Source: Heptranchias perlo
Lineage: Eukaryota
DNA length: 64,000 bases
NCBI RefSeq assembly: GCF_035084215.1
Contig: NC_090338.1
Span: 15,748,001-15,812,000 of the forward strand
Direction of reading: 5' to 3'
Shown: piece by piece, positions 11,633 to 47,700 of the stretch
Numbering within the stretch: position 1 is the stretch's first letter
How the letters are laid out: each line of letters starts with the position of its first letter
Translations under genes and position numbers: made by a program
The notes under the pieces: model-generated
The model's database searches: none
What the model was told of the DNA's origin: nothing
Seen by the model: the letters and a program-made list of their open reading frames with translations, nothing else

Positions 11633-12168
11633 TGAGAACACGAAGTCTTTCCCCTACACTCCGTCTGCCACAACACTGCACCCACCCCACATCTCCTTCG
11701 GCACCGCCAACACTATTCTGTCACATCACCCTTCATACCCACTCACACCCCATCCTCATCTTACCTCCACCTACTCACCTCGCCAGTACTCATCCTGCCA
11801 CTAACACGCGACCCAATCCTCATACAATCTCATGGCTCCATCCCATACTCACCCTCTCGTGCATCTCCCTCACGGCCAGCCTCACTCAACCTGCCACCAC
11901 CTGTGCTGCAGCCACAGGGCATGCATCACATATGTGCAGTAGGCAGCGTAAGGCAAACGTCTCGTCAGCATGAACATAAGAACATAAGAAATTGGAGCAG
12001 GAGTAGGCCAATCGGCCCCTCGAGCCTGCTCCGCCATTCAATAAGATCATGGCTGATCTGATCCCAACCACAAATCTAAAGAACACAAGAAGTCGGAGCA
12101 GGACCCGGCCACATAGCCCCTGGGCCCTCTCCGCCACCCACAGGGCATTGACCGATCCGAACTCAGCT

Positions 12169-15117
12169 TCATGTCCAATTTCCTGCCCGCTCCCCATAAC
12201 CCCTAATTCCCTTTACTTCTAGGAAACTGTCTATTTCTGTTTTAAATTTATCTAATGATGTAGCTTCCACAGCTTCCTGGGGCAGCAAATTCCACAGACC
12301 TACCACCCTCTGAGTGAAGAAGTTTCTCCTCATCTCAGTTTTGAAAGAGCAGCCCCTTATTCTAAGATTATGCCCCCTAGTTCTAGTTTCACCCATCTTT
12401 GGGAACATCCTTACCGCATCCACCCGATCAAGACCCTTCACAATCTTATATGTTTCAATAAGATCGCCTCTCATTCTTCTGAACTCCAATGAGTAGAGTC
12501 CCAATCTACTCAACCTCTCCTCATATGTCCGCCCCCTCATCCCCGGGATTAACCGAGTGAACCTTCTTTGTACTGCCTCGAGAGCAAGTATGTCTTTTCT
12601 TAAGTATGGAGACCAAAACTGTATGCAGTATTCCAGGTGCGGTCTCACCAATACCTTATATAACTGCAGCAATACCTCCTTGTTTTTATATTCTATCCCC
12701 CTAGCAATAAAAGCCAACATTCCGTTGGCTTTCTTGATCACCTGCTGCACCTGCATACCAACTTTTTGATTTTCTTGCACTAGGACCCCCAGATCCCTTT
12801 GTACTGCAGTACTTTCCAGTCTCTCGCCATTAAGAAAATAACTTGCTCTCTGATTTTTCCTGCCAAAGTGCATAACCTCACATTTTCCAATATTATATTG
12901 CATCTGCCAAATCTTCGCCCACTCACCCAGCCTGTCTATATCCCCTTGCAGGTTTTTTATGTCCTCCTCACTCTCTACTTTCCCTCCCATCTTTGTATCA
13001 TCTGCAAATTTTGATATGTTGCACTCAGTCCCCTCCTCCAAATCGTTAATATAGATTGTAAAGAGTTGGGGACCCAGCACCGACCCCTGTGGAACACCAC
13101 TGGTTACTGGTTGCCAGTCCGAAAATGAACCATTTATCCCAACTCTCTGCTTCCTGTTCGATAACCAATCCTCCACCCATGCCAGAATATTACCCCCAAT
13201 CCCGTGATTTTTTATCTTAAGTAATAATCTTTTATGTGGCACCTTGTCGAATGCCTTCTGGAAGTCTAAATACACTACGTCCACTGGTTCCCCTTTATCC
13301 ACCCTATACGTTATATCCTCGAAGAACTCAAGCAAATTTGTCAGACATGACTTCCCCTTCATAAAGCCATGCTGACTTTGTCCTATTAAATTATGCTTAT
13401 CTAAATGTTCCGTTACTGTCTCCTTAATAATAGACTCCAAAATTTTACCCACCACAGATGTTAAGCTAACTGGCCTATAATTTCCAGCCTTCTGCCTACT
13501 ACCCTTTTTAAATAACGGTGTTACATTAGCAGTTTTCCAATCTGCCGGGACCTCTCCTGAGTCCAGGGAATTTTGGAAAACTATCACCAAAGCATCCACA
13601 ATCCCTACTGCCACTTCCCTCAAGACCCTAGGATGGAAGCCATCAGGTCCAGGGGATTTATCCGCCTTGAGTCCCATTATTTTACTGAGTACCATCTCTT
13701 GAGTGATTTTAATCGTATTTAGCTCCTCCCCCCCGAGAGTCCCCTGTTTGTCCAGTGTTGGGATATTCTTAGTGTCCTCTACTGTAAAGACTGAAACAAA
13801 ATATTTGTTCAGCATTTTTGCCATCTCCATGTTTCCCACCATTAATTTCCCGGTCTCATCCTCTAAGGGACCTATGTTTGCCTTAGCCACCCTTTTTCTT
13901 TTTATATAACTATAGAAACTCTTGCTATCTGTTTTTATATTTTTTGCTAATTTCTTTTCATAATCTAACTTCCCTTTCTTAATCAATCCTTTAGTTACTT
14001 TTTGCTGTCTTTTGAAGAATTCCCAATCTTCTATCCTCCCACTAAGTTTGGCTACCTTATATGTCCTTGTTTTTAGTCGGATACTATCCTTGATTTCTTT
14101 ACTTAGCCACGGGTGACTGTCATTCCTTTTACACCCTTTTTTCCTCAGTGGAATATATTTATTTTGAAAGTTGTAAAATAACTCCCTAAATGAACACCAC
14201 TGCTCATGTACCGTCTTACCCTTTAATCTATTTTCCCAGTCCACTTTAATCAATTCCGCTCTCATACCATCATAGTCTCCTTTATTCAAGCTCAGTACGC
14301 TTGTTTGAGAATCAACCTTCTCACCCTCTAATTGGATATGGAATTCAACCATGTTGTGGTCGCTCGTTCCAAGGGGATCCTTAACTAGGACATTATTAAT
14401 TAATCCTGACTCATTACACAGGACCAGGTCCAAGGTTGCCTGCCCCCTTGTAGGATCAGTTACATACTGCTCAAGAAATCCATCCCTGATGCACTCAATG
14501 AACTCGTCCTCAAGGCTGCTCTGCCCACTTTGATTTGTCCAGTTAATATGATAATTAAAATCCCCCATAATTATGGCTGTTCCCTTATTACATGCCCCGA
14601 CTATCTCCTGATTAATACTTCTTCCAGCAGAGTTGCAACTATTAGGAGGCCTAAATACTACGCCCACTAATGTTTTTTTTCCCTTATTATTCCTTATCTC
14701 CACCCAAACTGTTTCATTATCTTGATGCTTTGTCCCAATATCATTTCTCTGTATTACAGTGATTCCTTCCTTTATTAACATAGCCACCCCACCTCCCCTT
14801 CCTTCCTGCCTGTCCTTCCTGATTGTTAAATACCCTGGCATATTTAATTCCCAGTCGTTGTCACCCTGCAGCCATGTTTCTGTAATGGCCACAAGATCAT
14901 ACCCATACGTAGTTATTTGTGCCGTTAACTCGTCCATTTTATTACGAATGCTACGTGCATTCAGATAAAGAACTTTCAAATCTGTTTTGTGACGCTTAGT
15001 TCCTGCTTTTTCCTTTTTTAACACTTTACCTATTACTCCATACCTTCTGTCCCTTCCTGTTACGCTTTCCTCTCTCTCCCTGCTCAGGTTCCCAACCCCC
15101 TGCCACTTTAGTTTAAA
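12169..15117 (-). CDS. CR1 ORF2: AP endonuclease plus reverse transcriptase, uninterrupted
   Basis: YLNARS, ITETWL, MGDFN, SDH (APE); QHGF, YLDFQKAFD, GVPQGSVLGP, FADD (RT). Frame open from 15132; first AUG is at 14937, after YLNARS. Start coordinate given is the proposed slip site. Confidence 0.95.
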   Translation of the reverse strand, partial: FKLKWQGVGNLSREREESVTGRDRRYGVIGKVLKKEKAGTKRHKTDLKVLYLNARSIRNKMDELTAQITTYGYDLVAITETWLQGDNDWELNMPGYLTIRKDRQEGRGGGVAMLIKEGITVIQRNDIGTKHQDNETVWVEIRNNKGKKTLVGVVFRPPNSCNSAGRSINQEIVGACNKGTAIIMGDFNYHINWTNQSGQSSLEDEFIECIRDGFLEQYVTDPTRGQATLDLVLCNESGLINNVLVKDPLGTSDHNMVEFHIQLEGEKVDSQTSVLSLNKGDYDGMRAELIKVDWENRLKGKTVHEQWCSFRELFYNFQNKYIPLRKKGCKRNDSHPWLSKEIKDSIRLKTRTYKVAKLSGRIEDWEFFKRQQKVTKGLIKKGKLDYEKKLAKNIKTDSKSFYSYIKRKRVAKANIGPLEDETGKLMVGNMEMAKMLNKYFVSVFTVEDTKNIPTLDKQGTLGGEELNTIKITQEMVLSKIMGLKADKSPGPDGFHPRVLREVAVGIVDALVIVFQNSLDSGEVPADWKTANVTPLFKKGSRQKAGNYRPVSLTSVVGKILESIIKETVTEHLDKHNLIGQSQHGFMKGKSCLTNLLEFFEDITYRVDKGEPVDVVYLDFQKAFDKVPHKRLLLKIKNHGIGGNILAWVEDWLSNRKQRVGINGSFSDWQPVTSGVPQGSVLGPQLFTIYINDLEEGTECNISKFADDTKMGGKVESEEDIKNLQGDIDRLGEWAKIWQMQYNIGKCEVMHFGRKNQRASYFLNGERLESTAVQRDLGVLVQENQKVGMQVQQVIKKANGMLAFIARGIEYKNKEVLLQLYKVLVRPHLEYCIQFWSPYLRKDILALEAVQRRFTRLIPGMRGRTYEERLSRLGLYSLEFRRMRGDLIETYKIVKGLDRVDAVRMFPKMGETRTRGHNLRIRGCSFKTEMRRNFFTQRVVGLWNLLPQEAVEATSLDKFKTEIDSFLEVKGIRGYGERAGNWT

Positions 15118-15120
15118 CCC
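15108..15120 (-). promoter_or_regulatory. Candidate programmed -1 ribosomal frameshift site G_GGU_UUA_AAC_UAA
   Basis: Two overlapping X_XXY_YYZ heptamers in the ORF1 frame directly before its stop; ORF2 is open in the -1 frame. Confidence 0.6.
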
Positions 15121-16050
15121 TCCCCAACAGCACTAGCAAACACTCCTCCTAGGACAGCGGTCCCGGCCCTGCCCAGGTGCGGACCGTCCGGTTTGTACTG
15201 GTCCCACCTCCCCCAGAACCGTTTCCAGTGTCCCAGGAATTTGAATCCCTCCCCCTTGCACCATTCCTCTAGCCACGTATTCATTTGAAATATCCTCCTA
15301 TTTCTACTCTGACTAGCACGTGGCACTGGCAGCAATCCTGAGATTACTACCTTTGAGGTCCTATTTTTTAATTTACCTCCTAACTCCCTATATTCTGCTT
15401 TTAGGACCTCATCCCCTTTTTTACCTATATCGTTGGTGCCTATGTGCACCACGACAGCTGGCTGTTCGCCCTCCCCCTCCAAAATGTTCTGTAGCCGCTC
15501 CGAGACATCCTTGATCCTTGCACCAGGGAGGCAACACACCATCCTGGAGTCTCGGTTGCGGCCGCAGAAACGCCTGTCTATTCCCCTTACAATTGAGTCC
15601 CCTATCACTATAGCTCTGCCACTCTTTTTCCTCCCAGCCTGTGCAGCAGAGCTACCCAGGAAGTTGGCTGCTGCTGCCTTCCCCTGATAAGTCATCCCCC
15701 CCAACAGCATCCAAAGTGGCATATCTGTTTGAGAGGGGGATGGACACAGGGGACCCCTGCACTACCTGCCTGCATCTCTTACTCTTCCTGGTGGTCACCC
15801 ATTCACTTCCTGCCTGTATACCCTTTACCTGCGGTGTGACCAACTCGCTAAACGTGCCATCCACGAGTTTCTCTGCATCGCGGATGCTCCACAATGAGTC
15901 CACCCGCAGCTCCAGCTCCGAGATACGATCGGTCAGTAGCTGCAGGTGGACAGACTTCCCGCACACATGGTCGGCAGGGACACTGGTAGTGTCCATGACT
16001 TCCCACATCTTGCAGGAGGAGCATATCACGGGTGCGAGGTCTGCTGCCAT
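15108..16050 (-). pseudogene. CR1 ORF1 (zinc finger, coiled coil, SGNH esterase) with one frameshift near 15660
   Basis: CSSC...HVCGKS, LTDRISELELRVDSL; IVIGDSIVRG, VVHIGTND, DGPHL; split over two ORFs (15652-16050 and 15108-15722). Confidence 0.9.
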
Positions 16051-16207
16051 GACTTGCCTTAGCTGAGTTACCCCTTTTAAATTATGTTGAAATTAGAAAA
16101 TGTTAACTATACTAGGGACCTAGGTTCACTAAAAAAAACACTATCTGCTATAAAACCTGCAGATCTTCCCTTTCTTATTACTTTACTTACAGTAAAATGG
16201 TAGAAAT

Positions 16208-16411
16208 ACTCACCTGAACCTACTCACCAATCAGCTGCCTCCCCTGTGCCGCGTCACTTTCTGACTGGTGACGTCACCCCGAACTGCCGCTGGTCTCAGA
16301 GTCTCGCTCTCAGAGTAAGCTCTGGTCTCGCTCTCTCCGCACTGTTTATATCTCCGCTCTGGTCTCGCTCTCTCCCGCCGCTCACCGACTGGACTCTCGC
16401 TCTCTCCGCGC
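16208..16411 (-). promoter_or_regulatory. CR1 5'UTR internal promoter-like region
   Basis: GAGAGCGAGA repeats, TATAAA (16345-16350), CRE palindrome GGTGACGTCACC (16267-16278), CCAAT (16227-16231), two GTGAGT donor consensus sites (16227, 16213). Confidence 0.5.
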
Positions 16412-16499
16412 TGAAGGGGGTGCACAAGGGTGTCTGAGGGTTTGTCATGGGTGTTACCCATATTGAATTTCAGAGCAACAAACAGCACACATTATATTG

Positions 16500-34989: not shown

Positions 34990-37900
34990 ACTGCAAACTT
35001 TCCTCCTCCACCATGTACCACCTCTTCAGACCTTTCAGCGGCAAGGTTCGCTCATTCGGACGGATGGCCTCCATCTTAACTTTCTGGGTGCACAGATGTT
35101 GGCTGAGAATTTTGAGGTTGCCTTTGGAGAGCATTTAAACTATTTGAGCCAAGATTAGATAAACCAGCCAGTAGTGGGGTAGGTAGCAATAATAGACTAC
35201 CTCGATTTTCTAAAGGTAAGGCACAGAAAGTGAATGGTACCCAGAGTCAGATCACTGACAAACCATTGAAATGCTTCTATGCTAATGCAAGAAGTCTTAG
35301 AAATAAACTGCTGGAACTACAATCTTACGCAACATTAGAAAACCCAGATGTTATTGGTGTTACTGAAATATGGCTAGATTTCAATGATGGTGCTGAATGC
35401 CGTATCGCAGGGTATCACTGTTTTAGGAAAGATAGAATAGGTCAGAAGGGAAGTGGTGTAACCTTATTTGTCAGAAATAAGTTGCCTCCCGTGGCAAGAG
35501 ATATTAGCACATCAGCAGGAGCTGAAGCTGTTTGGTTTCAATTAGTCCAAGCCAATGGCCCCAGGTTTATGATTGGCACCTGTTATAGACCTCCAGGACA
35601 GGCATCCCTGGCTGATGAGAAACTTAATTCACAAATTTCTGAGGCTTCTTGCCTGGACCCAATTTGCATTATGGGAGATTTCCACTTTATTTTTATTAAA
35701 TGATCTGATGGTGGAACCATCTAGTGTAGTGGGGAGAGCAGCTGAGACTTTTGTAGACACCATAACTGATTGTTTCCTTACACAGCATGTTGGTGAGGCA
35801 ACTAGGGATAAACAAATTCTCAATCAGGTGTTTAGCAGCGACCCTGGTGCTGTATCAAACCTCTGTGTGGGGAACACCTGGCCAGCTCTGATCATAACAT
35901 CATTAGGTTTAATCTTATTGGCCAATCCAAGGCTGCAGACAATCTAATGCTGGTCCCTAATTTAAAGAGGTCTAACTTTACAAAAATGGCTGAAGAACTG
36001 GCAAAAGTTGACTGGGCAACTCTCCTAGATAGGCAATCAAGTACTGAGGACAAATGGGTTCTATTTAAAACCATTCTCAAACAGAATAAAGCCATAGATG
36101 TCCCAATGGTTAAAAGAAGGGCAAATGGTAAAACAAAATCATTTTGGTTGACGAGGAATGTAGAGAGGCAAATTCGATCGAAACAAACGGCGTTCTATAG
36201 ACTTACTGCATTTAATTCGCAGGAGAACAGGGAAAAATATTGCATGCAATTAAGGAAGACAAAAATAGCCATAAGATTAGCCAAGCGATCTCTGGAAAAG
36301 AAGAAGGTGTGGTAATTGTGGCAGTAACAGGAAAAGCTTTTTTAGTATTGTCAGTAGTCAGAAGACCAGAAAGGACCACATCAGGCCACTAAAGGATACT
36401 GGAGGGCAGATTCAAACTGATTCTTGGGTTATGGGAGAGTTGCTAAATGACTATTTAGAATTAGTCTATACTCCTGTAGACGATGTTTATGTTCCAGATA
36501 AGGGGTGCTTTGTATTGAATAGCATTATTAATATTAAAATAGATAGTAATGTCCTCTTGGATAGGTCAGGAAAGCTCAAAGTTGATAGGGCTCCAGGTCT
36601 GGATAATATTCATCCAAGGAGATTAAAGAGATGGGGCAGGTACTCTGTAAGTCCCTTGCCCGGATCATTAATAGTTCAATAGAGTCCGGGATAGTTCCCT
36701 TAGACTGAAAGCTAGCTCATGTAGTTCCTATTTTTAAGAAAGGGGGCAAATCAGAGTCAGTGAACTACAGACCTATCAGCGAAGATGCTAGAAGGGATCA
36801 TAAGAGATGCCCTTTATGATCACTGGGAAAGGAAAGGGGCTATTAGAAATTCTCAACATGACTTTTGAAAAAATAGGTCGTGCCTAACAAGTCGCTTGGG
36901 TAGTGGATGAGGGTGATCCGGTAGATATTGTCCACCTGGACTTTCCAAAAGCAGATGATAAGGTACTTCACGCTTTGTTAATTCACAAGATAGAATCTTG
37001 TGATACAAGTAGAAATTTGAAGAGCTGGATTTGGAATTGGCTCCAATCCTGCAGCCAAAAGGTTGTAGTTAACATAAATGGTTCAGCTTGGAGACATGTT
37101 ACGAGTGGTGTCCCCCAGGGATCGGTCCTAGGCCTGCTATTCTTCATGGTCTTTATTAATGACCTGGACGGTGGTGTTGGGAGTTTGGTAAGTACGTTTG
37201 CAGATGACACCAAAATTTGTGCAAGGGTTAAGATGGTAGAGGAATGCAATCAAATCCAAAAAGGTTTAGATGTGCTGAGGGAATGGGCCACACATTGGCA
37301 AATGTTGTTTGATTTAGATAAATGTAGTGTCATGCATGTTGGTAGGATCAACACTGAATACATGTATCATTTGCAGGGAACAAACAATACTGAAAGAGAT
37401 TGAGTGACAAAAAGATCTTGGTGTTATTGTACATAGGTCACTAAAGATTCATGACCAATGTAGAGAAACTGTAGCTAAAGCTAATAAGGAATTGGATTGT
37501 ATTAATAGACCCATTCATTATAAATCAAGGGACACCATTTTGACACTATACAGGTCACTGGTCAGACTGTGCCGAACTTTGGTCCCCCCACATGGTGGGT
37601 GATTTAGTGACCTTGGAAAAAATCGAGAGGAGATCTACAAGAATGATTCCAAGGTTAAAGAACCTCAGCTACTCAGATAGGCTCAGGGACTTTGGTGTAT
37701 TTACTTTAGAGCAGCGTGGACTTAGAGATGACCTGATAAAGGTTTATAAAATAATTAAAGGACAGGCTATCATCCCTATTGATAGATTATTCCAGTTTAA
37801 CTGGTTGGGGAGGACCAGGGGAGATGAGTTTAAACTATGGAAGAGCAGGAATAGACTGAATGTTAGGTGGTTCTTCTTTTCCCAGAGAATTGTGAGCCTC

Positions 37901-44700: not shown

Positions 44701-47700
44701 ATCGCCCACCTGCACACAGTGCAGGAGGCGGTCCAATGAGCTCAGTAGGTCAGCCACAGTGAGTACACGTAGTCTTTCCCCTACACTCCGTCTGCCACAT
44801 CACTGCCCCCACCCCACATCTCCTTCGGCACTGCCAACACTACTCTGTCACATCACCCATCAGACCCACTCAAACCCCATCCTCATCTTACCTGCACCTA
44901 CTCACCTCGCCAGTACTCACCCCGCCACTACCACGCAACCCAATCCTCATACAATCTCATGGCTCTATCCAATACTCACCCTCTCGTGCATCTCTCTCAC
45001 GGCCAGCCTCACTCAACCTGCCACCACCTGTGCTGCAGCCACAGGGCATGCATCACATATGTGCAGTAGGCAGCGTAAGGCAAACGTGTCGTGAGCATGA
45101 AGGGGATGCACAAGGGTGTTTGAGGGTTTGTCATGGTTGTTACTTCTATTGAATTTCAGAACAACTCACATCACACATTATATTGGCACCACTACTGCCA
45201 TGTCTTCGCGAATCCTGTCCAGTTTGTGCAATAATGCCCGCTCCTGGGTATCACTATGAGGACCCACCACTGATGCCACCCATTGTATCACTGCAGAGTG
45301 GGTGTAGGTGTATTTGCAGGGCTTTTCTGCGCAGACGACTGAGAGACATCGGCGATGTCCCCGGTTGCACCCTGGAAGGCTGTGGAGGAGAAGTTCGGGA
45401 GGGCAGTGGTGACTTTGACAGTGACAGGTAGGAAGATGGTGCTCAGGCCAGCCAGGAGCAGCTCGGCATGAAAGAGGCTGCAGATGTCCACGGCTACATG
45501 TCGAGTGACTCTGAGCCTCCATGTGTACTACTGCTTAGAGAGGTCCAGGAGGCTGAGCCTCGGTCTGTGGAACCAGCGACGCATCTCTCTCTGCGGTAGC
45601 CCTCCCTCCTGCTGTGCAGGTGGATGTGTCACAGCACTCTGTTGTGGAGCTCCACGTGTCAGAGGTGGACGGCATGGATGGCGAGGCTGATGAGGCTGGT
45701 GATGCTGTTCGCCCTCCGAGGAGGTCATGACTGCAGCTACGGCGGCCCCCATCCGCAAGATGTACATCTGAGGGGGTCCGCAAGGTAGGTACATGTCTCC
45801 GGACCCCGGGGTAAGTGTGCAGGTTGGTGACTTTGACCGTCAGGAGGAGGGTGGTGCAGGCCAAACTTTGTCCCAAGTGACAGAGTGGCCTCCTGCAATG
45901 GGTGAGGGTCTCCCCCCACCCCCCCTGTCAAATGGACCTTTGCAGCTGCCACAGGCTGACAGCTGCAACACGTCCATTCGATCTGGGAGTGTTTCCCCCA
46001 GTGTGTGAAACAGTCCCATGTTTATCCAAAATCACACACAGTCCCTTAATCAGGTCAGTTAATGACCTGAAATAGCTACATAAATACTCTCAAGTGGCAT
46101 CCCGCTGGCTTTAATTGCCTGCAGGATTCGCACCAGTGGGGGCTGCGCGCGCACGCCAGCGCGTCAGCGGGGAACCTGGAAGTGGGTGTGATCGAGGCGC
46201 GATCCGGTCGGGATCCTGGATTTTACGATTTTCGAGGCCCCCCCGCCGAGAACGCACCTGATAGCGGGTGCTAAAATCGGGCCCAAAGTATTTGTTTAAT
46301 TTCTCTGCCATTTCCTTATTCCCCACTATAAATTCTCCCGTCTGTGTCTGTAAGGGACCCACATTTGCCTTTGCCAGTCTTTTCCTTTTTACATACCTAT
46401 AGAGGCTTTTACAGTCCATTTTTATGTTTCTCGCTACTTTACTCTCAGATTCTATTTTCCCTTTCTTTATCAATTTCTTGATCCTCCTTTGCTGAATTCT
46501 AAAATGCTCCCAATCCTCAGGCTTACTGCTTTTTCTGGCAAATTTATATGCCTCTTTCTTTGATTTAATATTCTCTTTAATTTCTTTTATTACCATGGTT
46601 GAACCAATTTTCCTGTTGGGTTTATGTGCCTTAAAGTTAAATATATTTATTGCAAATTATGTATTAATTCTTTAAATGCTAGCCATTGCCTGTCCACCGC
46701 CATACCTTTTAATGTAGTTCCCCAATCATCTATCGGCAACTTGCACCTTATACTTTCGTAATTTCCTTTGTTTAGATTTAAGACCCTAGTTTCAGATTGA
46801 ACTACATCACTTTCAAACTTAATGAAGAATTCTATCATATTATGGTCACTCTTCCCTAAGGGCTCCTTTACAACAAGATTATTAATTAACCCTTTCTCAG
46901 TGCTCAATACTAGATCTAAAATAGCCTGTTCTCCAGATTGAATTCCATTTGCCACTTTTCTGCCCACCTGACCAGTCCATTGATATCTTCCTGCAGTCCA
47001 CAGCTTTCCTCCTCACTATCAACCACATGGCCAATTTTTGTATCATCTGCAAACTTCTTAATCATTCCCCTTGCATTTCGGTCTAAATCATTAATATATA
47101 CCAAAAATGCAAGGGACCTAGTACTGAACCCTGTGGGACCCCACTGAAAACAGCCTTCCAGTCACAAAAACACCCGTTAACCATTACCCTTTGCTGCCTG
47201 CCACTGAGCCAATTTTGGATTCAATTTGTCACTTTCCCTTGGATCCCATGGGCTTTTACTTTTCTGACCAGTCTGCCATGTGGGACCTTGTCAAAAGCCT
47301 TGCTAAAATCTATGTAGATTACATCAAATACGCTATCCTCATCGTCCCCCCCCCTTGTAACCTCCTCAAAATGAGGAGGAGCTCAAAAATCTCCATATTA
47401 CAAAATAGATATGGAGGCACTTGAGAAGATATGAAAAAGATTTACAAGGATGATACCAGAACAGAGAGGTTATAACTATCAGGAAAGATTGAACAGGCTC
47501 TTTTCTCTGGAAAAGTGAAGGCTAAGAGCTCACCTTTTACAGATCTTTAAAATTATAAAGGACTTTGATAGGGGGGTCGACGTAGAGAGGATGTTTCCAA
47601 TTATGGGGAAGTTCAAAACTAGGGGCCATAGTATAAGATATAGTCACTCATTAATGCAATAAAGAATTCAGGAGAAACTTCTTAACCCAGAGAGTTGCTG

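What the first reader, a model, noticed from the sequence alone, without database searches (positions are those of the whole stretch)
15050..15135. Candidate programmed -1 ribosomal frameshift joining ORF1 and ORF2 of a vertebrate CR1 LINE
Seen: on the - strand ORF1 ends GAG GGT TTA AAC TAA (stop 15110-15108). This places two overlapping slippery heptamers, G_GGU_UUA and U_UUA_AAC, in register in the ORF1 frame. The -1 frame (TTT AAA CTA AAG TGG CAG GGG...) opens after a TAG at 15135-15133 and runs unbroken through ORF2 to 12169. The first AUG (14937) lies after the endonuclease motif YLNARS, so AUG initiation would truncate the domain. A G-rich tract (GGGGG-UU-GGG...GGG, with a weak GGGUU/AACCU hairpin) starts about 10 nt downstream. 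Established: U_UUA_AAC is the coronavirus-type -1 slippery site; -1 frameshifting is typical of retroviral gag-pol, whereas L1 ORF2 is thought to be made by re-initiation. Inference: this CR1 makes a Gag-Pol-like ORF1-ORF2 fusion. I do not know of this being demonstrated for CR1, but I could not search the literature.
Basis: partly seen in the sequence, partly recalled or inferred. Interest (0 to 1): 0.88.

Follow-up and report, generated by a model that had tools for sequence, protein, structure and literature searches.

The report
Conserved frameshift signal in CR1 LINEs
An abundant jumping gene (a CR1-type LINE) ends its first gene with the same seven-letter slippery sequence that coronaviruses use, kept letter for letter across very different families, and its second gene sits one base back with no usable start codon, so ribosomes likely slip back one base to make a fused protein, which would answer how these elements make their reverse transcriptase.

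Summary
Observation confirmed. The window holds a full-length copy of a young esterase-type CR1 LINE (host likely a shark). ORF1 ends U_UUA_AAC plus stop; ORF2 is open in the -1 frame from there, and its first AUG lies past the residue that aligns with L1 endonuclease Asn14. The heptamer is under selection: 102 of 109 aligned copies carry it, and 14 of 14 family representatives keep T|TTA|AAC behind six different amino acids while the catalytic DGLHL codons vary. In pattern scans free at synonymous sites, 4 of 4 CR1-like loci carry it against 0 of 41 others. Linkers of 14 lengths all keep the -1 phase. Distant ORF1 proteins end LN, GN, KN or GF, the dipeptides of the four shiftiest heptamers (protein level only). 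Best reading: programmed -1 frameshifting giving an ORF1-ORF2 fusion (0.87, not shown experimentally). Not supported: the second heptamer G_GGU_UUA, the hairpin, and a shared 3' stimulator. This copy's ORF1 is broken. No CR1 report turned up in 10 searches, but the primary CR1 papers were not held; -1 frameshifting is stated for Dictyostelium TRE5-A/TRE3-A. The scan noted this before on other DNA.

The parts
11972..16413 (-). Full-length esterase-type CR1 LINE copy, about 4.4 kb
   Evidence: 5' boundary shared with 3 of 4 sister loci compared; 3' octamer repeat; both flanks match an uninterrupted repeat at 45027-45185
15108..16050 (-). ORF1 (Cys-pair motif, SGNH esterase); broken in this copy by an 8-nt deletion near 15657; 316 aa in intact sisters
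   Evidence: (PF13472, E 1.6e-12)
15111..15117 (-). Slippery heptamer U_UUA_AAC in ORF1 register (last two codons Leu-Asn)
15108..15110 (-). ORF1 stop TAA directly after the heptamer (TAA 59, TAG 41, TGA 0 of 109 copies)
15133..15135 (-). -1-frame stop five codons before the heptamer; limits the overlap and excludes upstream entry into ORF2
15068..15107 (-). G-rich tract 3' of the site; possible two-tier G-quadruplex; lineage-restricted, role unproven
   Evidence: (G4Hunter 1.44)
14980..15111 (-). AUG-less -1-frame linker (K/G/R/S/E-rich) between the site and the endonuclease
12169..15132 (-). ORF2, -1 frame, APE endonuclease plus reverse transcriptase, 987 aa stop to stop; first ATG 14937
   Evidence: (PF03372, PF00078)
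11972..11990 (-). 3' terminal 8-nt repeat, 2.4 copies

Best explanation
This CR1 family likely makes its endonuclease-reverse transcriptase as an ORF1-ORF2 fusion by programmed -1 ribosomal frameshifting at U_UUA_AAC, the last two codons of ORF1. Shown: the heptamer, its register, the adjacent stop, the open AUG-less -1 frame, and conservation at synonymous sites. Inferred: tRNA-Leu and tRNA-Asn slip one base back in a minority of ribosomes, giving ...GEGLN-LKWQG and a predicted fusion of about 1,296 aa from intact copies (316 + 980), while most ribosomes stop and release ORF1p, which sets a high ORF1p:ORF2p ratio. Less certain: the pause likely comes from the stop codon abutting the site, helped by lineage-specific 3' elements (G-tracts in some families, hairpins in others).
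For: 102 of 109 copies aligned by an ORF1 C-terminal profile end in TTTAAAC (142 loci examined, 33 had no aligned C-terminus). 14 of 14 family representatives: third base T before TTA in Gly, Asp, Ala, His, Tyr and Phe codons, Leu always TTA, Asn always AAC, while the invariant Leu of DGLHL uses 5 codons and the invariant Gly 4. Scans free at synonymous sites: 3 of 3 metagenome loci with a downstream endonuclease have T TTA AAC TAG and an open -1 frame, 0 of 28 others; 1 CR1-like contig has it, 0 of 13 others. 14 distinct open linker lengths, 77-362 nt, all in -1 phase; 57 of 66 open copies have no AUG in the linker. Linker stops: 5 in the -1 frame against 74 and 127 in the other two, over 1,093 codons. 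The -1 frame opens only 6-18 nt before the site, without AUG, in 15 of 15. The YLNARS Asn aligns with L1 endonuclease Asn14 (its catalytic role is recalled). Of 101 distant ORF1p representatives, 45 end LN, 12 GN, 3 KN, 2 GF, none IN, VN or MN; 63 of 101 fit XXXYYYZ against 70 of 1,111 background dipeptides. [quoted passage not shown] The classes replace each other by clade.
Against: No translation data. No shared 3' structure: fold z-scores -2.6 to +1.0 in 14 representatives, pseudoknot score beyond shuffles (p <= 0.05) in 1 of 15, G-quadruplex in the MFE in 4 of 15, and L104 has almost no structure. 27 of 104 copies have the endonuclease in another frame; I read them as decayed copies, since each has its own or a twice-seen linker length. 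GN, KN and GF classes were seen only as proteins, with no DNA and no named host. 17 of 101 representatives show no such dipeptide, 49 of 150 were dropped for lacking a usable C-terminus, and the search profile favoured LN. 3 of 10 representatives with a located endonuclease motif do have an AUG in the linker. Families share ancestry, so counts are not independent. Odon 2013 (PMC3708506, passages) argues ORF1 products need to be separate from ORF2.
Confidence: 0.87

Rival explanations
1. Termination-reinitiation: ribosomes finish ORF1 and restart ORF2 at a nearby non-AUG or AUG codon, as proposed for L1 and SART1; the conserved motif would be a termination or reinitiation signal.
For: Han 2010 (PMC2881922, passages) gives ORF1-dependent unconventional initiation as the model for L1 and SART1. 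The motif sits at the stop. 9 of 66 open copies have a linker AUG, and most linkers have near-cognate codons.
Against: No start codon is shared across families and L104 has none. Reinitiation does not require a fixed -1 phase over 14 linker lengths, a linker open right up to the heptamer, or LN/GN/KN/GF swaps. Several distant groups carry KN, GF or FF before a short tail rather than at the stop.
Confidence: 0.08
2. The conservation reflects protein constraints in two frames (Leu-Asn-stop in ORF1, Phe-Lys-Leu in ORF2) or an unrelated RNA or DNA signal, with ORF2 made some other way.
For: FKL is invariant in the -1 frame of every representative shown, and overlapping frames do fix codons.
Against: FKL could be translated only from an upstream start, but the -1 frame is closed 2-6 codons earlier with no AUG. 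Both frames would tolerate AAT, yet AAC is 14 of 14. Leu to Gly or Lys swaps without Ile, Val or Met argue against a hydrophobic protein constraint.
Confidence: 0.03
3. ORF2 is made from a spliced or subgenomic RNA that uses the AG of TTTAAACTAG or another acceptor.
For: The 5' UTR has donor-like sites, e.g. CAG|GTGAGT at 16216-16208.
Against: 59 of 109 copies, including this one, end in TAA and have no AG at that place. No GT-AG joint to ORF2 among the 15 of 20 joints shown in four contig runs (contigs of uncertain RNA origin, weak).
Confidence: 0.02

Closest known systems
Coronavirus ORF1a/1b (IBV) U_UUA_AAC and retroviral gag-pol / pro-pol -1 frameshift sites
   Same: Identical heptamer in ORF1 register, -1 downstream polymerase frame; IBV's site is given as U_UUA_AAC in PMC5009743. 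A stop directly after the site recalls RSV gag-pol and BLV pro-pol (recalled, not retrieved; not held).
   Different: Host is a non-LTR retrotransposon with no Gag or protease; no conserved pseudoknot or stem-loop was found.
Dictyostelium TRE5-A / TRE3-A (APE-type non-LTR elements)
   Same: A figure legend in PMC5911963 states both require a -1 frameshift for ORF2 translation.
   Different: Different clade, unrelated ORF1, tRNA-gene targeted; I saw no slippery site or experiment in the passages read.
Mammalian L1 and silkworm SART1 ORF2 translation
   Same: Bicistronic LINE RNA, with ORF2 output dependent on ORF1 translation (PMC2881922).
   Different: Those use reinitiation and give a separate ORF2p; SART1 has a UAAUG stop-start (PMC3708506). 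Here there is no AUG at the stop and the phase is fixed at -1.
ZfL2-1 and other esterase-ORF1p non-LTR elements (Schneider 2013, PMC3905857)
   Same: ORF1p with an SGNH esterase.
   Different: The passages read do not address how ORF2 is made. A long-branch esterase group (P0217, P0223, P0249) and P0119/P0120 lack the terminal dipeptide, so the signal is not universal among esterase elements.
Paramecium non-LTR groups 1-3 (PMC5405496)
   Same: Recoding suggested for ORF2 from consensus sequences.
   Different: +1 frameshift or readthrough, different clade.

Membership tests
CR1-type LINE with esterase ORF1 | ORF2 with APE endonuclease and reverse transcriptase | tested here: met
   PF03372/PF14529 and PF00078; profile matches L1 endonuclease 1VYB at E 4.7e-07
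CR1-type LINE with esterase ORF1 | ORF1p with Cys-pair motif and SGNH esterase | tested here: met
   PF13472; homologs in sharks, rays, coelacanth, a teleost, frogs, turtles, squamates
CR1-type LINE with esterase ORF1 | 3' end in a short octamer repeat rather than poly(A) (feature recalled) | tested here: met
   8-nt unit, 2.4 copies at 11972-11990
CR1-type LINE with esterase ORF1 | RT phylogeny within the CR1 clade against named references (versus L2, Crack, Rex1) | not tested
   No named reference RTs were fetched; the CR1 label rests on ORF1 homology, architecture and 3' repeat
Programmed -1 frameshift signal (X_XXY_YYZ type) | Heptamer in the upstream ORF's register with an overlapping open -1 frame | tested here: met
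Programmed -1 frameshift signal (X_XXY_YYZ type) | Conservation at synonymous positions and exchange among slippery variants | tested here: met
   DNA: 14 of 14, 4 of 4 versus 0 of 41. Exchange among variants at protein level only
Programmed -1 frameshift signal (X_XXY_YYZ type) | Stimulatory RNA structure 5-9 nt downstream | tested here: inconclusive
   Strong hairpins in L102 and L126 (0 of 40 shuffles as good), G4Hunter >= 1.2 in 8 of 14, nothing shared by all; window hairpin z = 0.06
Programmed -1 frameshift signal (X_XXY_YYZ type) | Trans-frame product whose level depends on the heptamer | not testable with these tools
   Needs a reporter, ribosome profiling or mass spectrometry
SART1/L1-type termination-reinitiation | AUG overlapping or close to the ORF1 stop, upstream of the endonuclease | tested here: not met
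   First ATG 171 nt past the stop and inside the domain; 57 of 66 open linkers lack AUG
SART1/L1-type termination-reinitiation | AUG-independent initiation (reported for L1; recalled, and mentioned in PMC5009743) | not testable with these tools
   Cannot be excluded by sequence; no shared near-cognate codon

The most novel reading that the evidence does not exclude
The whole esterase-CR1 lineage, including the dominant LINEs of sharks, reptiles and birds and distant relatives of unknown host, has used retrovirus-style -1 frameshifting since early in its history, swapping among the four shiftiest heptamers, so that its reverse transcriptase is made covalently joined to a lipid-binding esterase ORF1p. 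The site may work with little RNA structure through the adjacent stop codon, and in some lineages through a G-quadruplex, which would be a natural use the 2016 review called not currently known.
Probability: 0.6. Interest if true: 0.85.

Novelty: new variant of a known kind. Interest (0 to 1): 0.74.

Why it matters
How bicistronic LINE RNAs make ORF2p is described as unclear, with reinitiation the working model (PMC3708506, PMC2881922). A defined seven-base signal in a very large vertebrate LINE lineage makes the question testable with one reporter and a few synonymous changes. It predicts that the active enzyme is a fusion carrying the esterase, that annotated CR1 ORF2 proteins starting at the first AUG are truncated, that an intact ORF1 frame is needed in cis (so copies with an intact ORF2 alone, like this one, would be dead), and that frameshift-restricting host factors could act on LINEs.

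Tried and rejected
G_GGU_UUA as a second site: not conserved. GGGUU/AACCU hairpin: z = 0.06. Shared pseudoknot: a crude stem search beat shuffles in 1 of 15. Long-range partner for the G-tract: best duplex -31.4 against a background best of -30.1 among 25 random 30-mers, not convincing. TTTAAACTA at 37829 lies in the 3' part of an ORF2 and is not a junction. Natural single-frame fusions: 'longer' search found none among 8,000 candidates (weak). DNA for GN/KN elements: own-genome pattern gave 1 match that is a G-run variant of the shark type; viral contigs, plasmids and phages gave nothing usable (with 47, 59, 60, 61). Cluster look-ups gave no host names. DNA search of the own genome returned only the window, because common words are skipped. 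Expression: no RNA holder listed; the four laid runs are contigs of guessed RNA origin. Single-sequence PDB search found nothing; the profile did. The tree is the quick IQ-TREE run, as the careful search did not finish.
Full report
What is there. The - strand of 16413-11972 is one full-length LINE. Its 5' edge is shared with 3 of 4 sister loci compared, it ends in an 8-nt repeat, and both flanks match an uninterrupted repeat elsewhere in the window. ORF1 encodes an SGNH esterase and ORF2 an APE endonuclease and reverse transcriptase. The closest named ORF1p is from a sawshark at 77%, so the host is likely a shark. The family is young: the 150 best genomic matches to the ORF1 C-terminus are 98-100% identical, and all 30 loci fetched share the junction. 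The CR1 label rests on architecture and homology; no RT tree with named references was built.

The observation. The Asn of YLNARS aligns with Asn14 of human L1 endonuclease, so starting at AUG 14937 would remove the first strand and a residue I recall as catalytic. This copy's ORF1 has an 8-nt deletion relative to L005 and stops early, so the mechanism applies to the family, not to this copy.

Conservation in the genome. I gathered loci by the ORF1 C-terminus, a Pfam esterase model, a divergent endonuclease from window 35242, a divergent ORF1p and 40 listed places. Of 142 loci (138 own, 4 external), 109 had an ORF1 C-terminus placed by a profile: 102 end in TTTAAAC, followed by TAA in 59, TAG in 41, TGA in none. 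The endonuclease lies in the -1 frame in 77 of 104. The other 27 have lengths seen once or twice and look decayed. 66 of the 77 are open from the site to the domain, 57 of these without AUG, over 14 linker lengths from 77 to 362 nt. Stops in linkers number 5 in the -1 frame against 74 and 127 in the others. One family is a chimera of two others joined inside the linker, in phase.

The synonymous test. In 14 representatives the invariant residues of the catalytic DGLHL loop use many codons (Leu 5, His 2, the later Gly 4), while the end is T|TTA|AAC in all 14, the first T being the third base of Gly, Asp, Ala, His, Tyr or Phe codons. ORF1 codon usage predicts this in 1.7% of cases per family. 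The families are related, perhaps eight or nine deep lineages, so I do not multiply the odds as if independent. G_GGU_UUA is not conserved.

Outside the genome. A pattern demanding DGLHL..G and a terminal Leu(or Phe)-Asn-stop but free at synonymous sites gave 31 metagenome loci. The 3 with a downstream endonuclease (L102, L104, L126) all read T TTA AAC TAG with the -1 frame open; none of the other 28 has TTTAAAC (3 have T TTA AAT). Among 14 genome-contig loci only L265, a 257-base CR1-like contig too short to hold the endonuclease, has it.

Exchange among slippery variants. Of 150 cluster representatives, 101 had a C-terminus 18-50 residues after the DGxH motif and 49 were dropped. They end LN 45, GN 12, KN 3, GF 2, never IN, VN or MN; 63 of 101 fit an XXXYYYZ heptamer against 70 of 1,111 nearby dipeptides. 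Counting internal KN, GF, FF, FL, GN or LN before a short tail gives 84 of 101 against 15 of 101 control windows. [quoted passage not shown] On a quick tree of 98 esterases, built without the C-terminus, the classes are clade-specific (24 changes against 49.8 shuffled), which shows clustering, not co-evolution. This is protein evidence only, the profile favoured LN, and the hosts of the GN, KN and GF groups are unknown. All 14 new proteins were inspected: 6 end GN, 5 carry FF, GF or FL at or near the end, 3 show none.

The stimulator is open. No structure is shared: fold z-scores run from -2.6 to +1.0, G4Hunter reaches 1.2 in 8 of 14, L102 and L126 have strong hairpins 10-11 nt after the site, and L104 has almost nothing. 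The one constant neighbour in the LN class is the stop codon, so I favour a termination pause with lineage-specific helpers; this step is the least supported.

Mechanism and rivals. Most likely a minority of ribosomes slip -1 on U_UUA_AAC and make a fusion of about 1,296 aa (0.87). Reinitiation (0.08) does not explain the fixed phase, the linker open up to the heptamer, or the dipeptide swaps, though 3 of 10 representatives have a linker AUG. Dual-frame protein constraint (0.03) fails because the -1 frame is closed 2-6 codons upstream. Splicing (0.02) fails for TAA copies, and no matching joint was seen (weak).

Literature. Ten full-text searches listed no paper proposing frameshifting for CR1; I judged most hits from listings and abstract starts. 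Read as passages: PMC11835228 (frameshift mentions concern ALV; first 300,000 of 609,807 characters held), PMC5009743 (no 'CR1' in the 300,000 of 449,034 characters held), PMC4255032, PMC3905857, PMC3708506, PMC5405496, PMC2881922, PMC5006619, PMC5911963. The last states that TRE5-A and TRE3-A require a -1 frameshift, so the idea is not new for LINEs in general. Haas 1997, Kapitonov and Jurka 2003, Alisch 2006, Kojima 2005 and Jacks 1988 were not held, Kajikawa 1997 and Haas 2001 were not looked up, and no supplements or Repbase notes were seen; an earlier remark on the CR1 overlap may exist there. The scan noted the same signal in two other genomes; these are unchecked AI notes, seen after my reading was set, and one of them supplied the TRE5-A lead.

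Verdict. A real, selected signal and a well-supported but untested mechanism: a new variant of a known kind, interest 0.74.

Noticed in passing
window 15135-15133 (-) and 12 family representatives: A -1-frame stop lies 2-6 codons before the heptamer in 12 of 12 representatives, with different stop codons; the background chance of that closeness is 0.18-0.79 each. It may guard against premature entry into ORF2.
   Followed up: partly
L035 (also L036, L044, L047, L057, L061, L295): Chimeric family: ORF1 and linker 96% like L033, then linker and endonuclease 94% like the window's family, joined in the -1 phase (only L035 was compared, the others share its linker type).
   Followed up: partly
window 16230-16185 (-): Three splice-donor-like sites in the 5' UTR (TTG|GTGAGT, CAG|GTGAGT, ACT|GTAAGT); no matching joint among those shown.
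   Followed up: partly
109 aligned junctions: The ORF1 stop is TAA or TAG, never TGA, although TGA would keep Leu in the -1 frame.
   Followed up: no
window 35134 (+) and 57352 (+): Two more CR1 junctions in the window; the one at 35134 belongs to a lineage only about 28% identical in ORF2 and keeps the heptamer.
   Followed up: yes
window 45027-45185 versus 11900-11974 and 16412-16499: The element sits inside another dispersed repeat whose uninterrupted copy lies in the window; the two flank matches overlap by 4 bases, and no duplication of 8 or more bases was found.
   Followed up: partly
P0006; L265: A shark-like CR1 ORF1p is annotated as a Pseudomonas aeruginosa SGNH hydrolase, and a CR1-like junction lies in a 257-base contig of a Jeotgalibacillus assembly; both are likely contamination.
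   Followed up: no
P0039: A stingray predicted protein runs from ORF1 through GFKL into the endonuclease in one frame, probably a decayed copy or a gene-model artefact.
   Followed up: no
P0217, P0223, P0249, P0119, P0120: Esterase ORF1 proteins without any slip-type dipeptide; they may mark the edge of the frameshifting lineage.
   Followed up: no
L075, L077, L078, L080: Lineage-C endonuclease copies with no esterase or heptamer upstream and a shared unrelated flank; probably 5'-truncated copies later duplicated.
   Followed up: no
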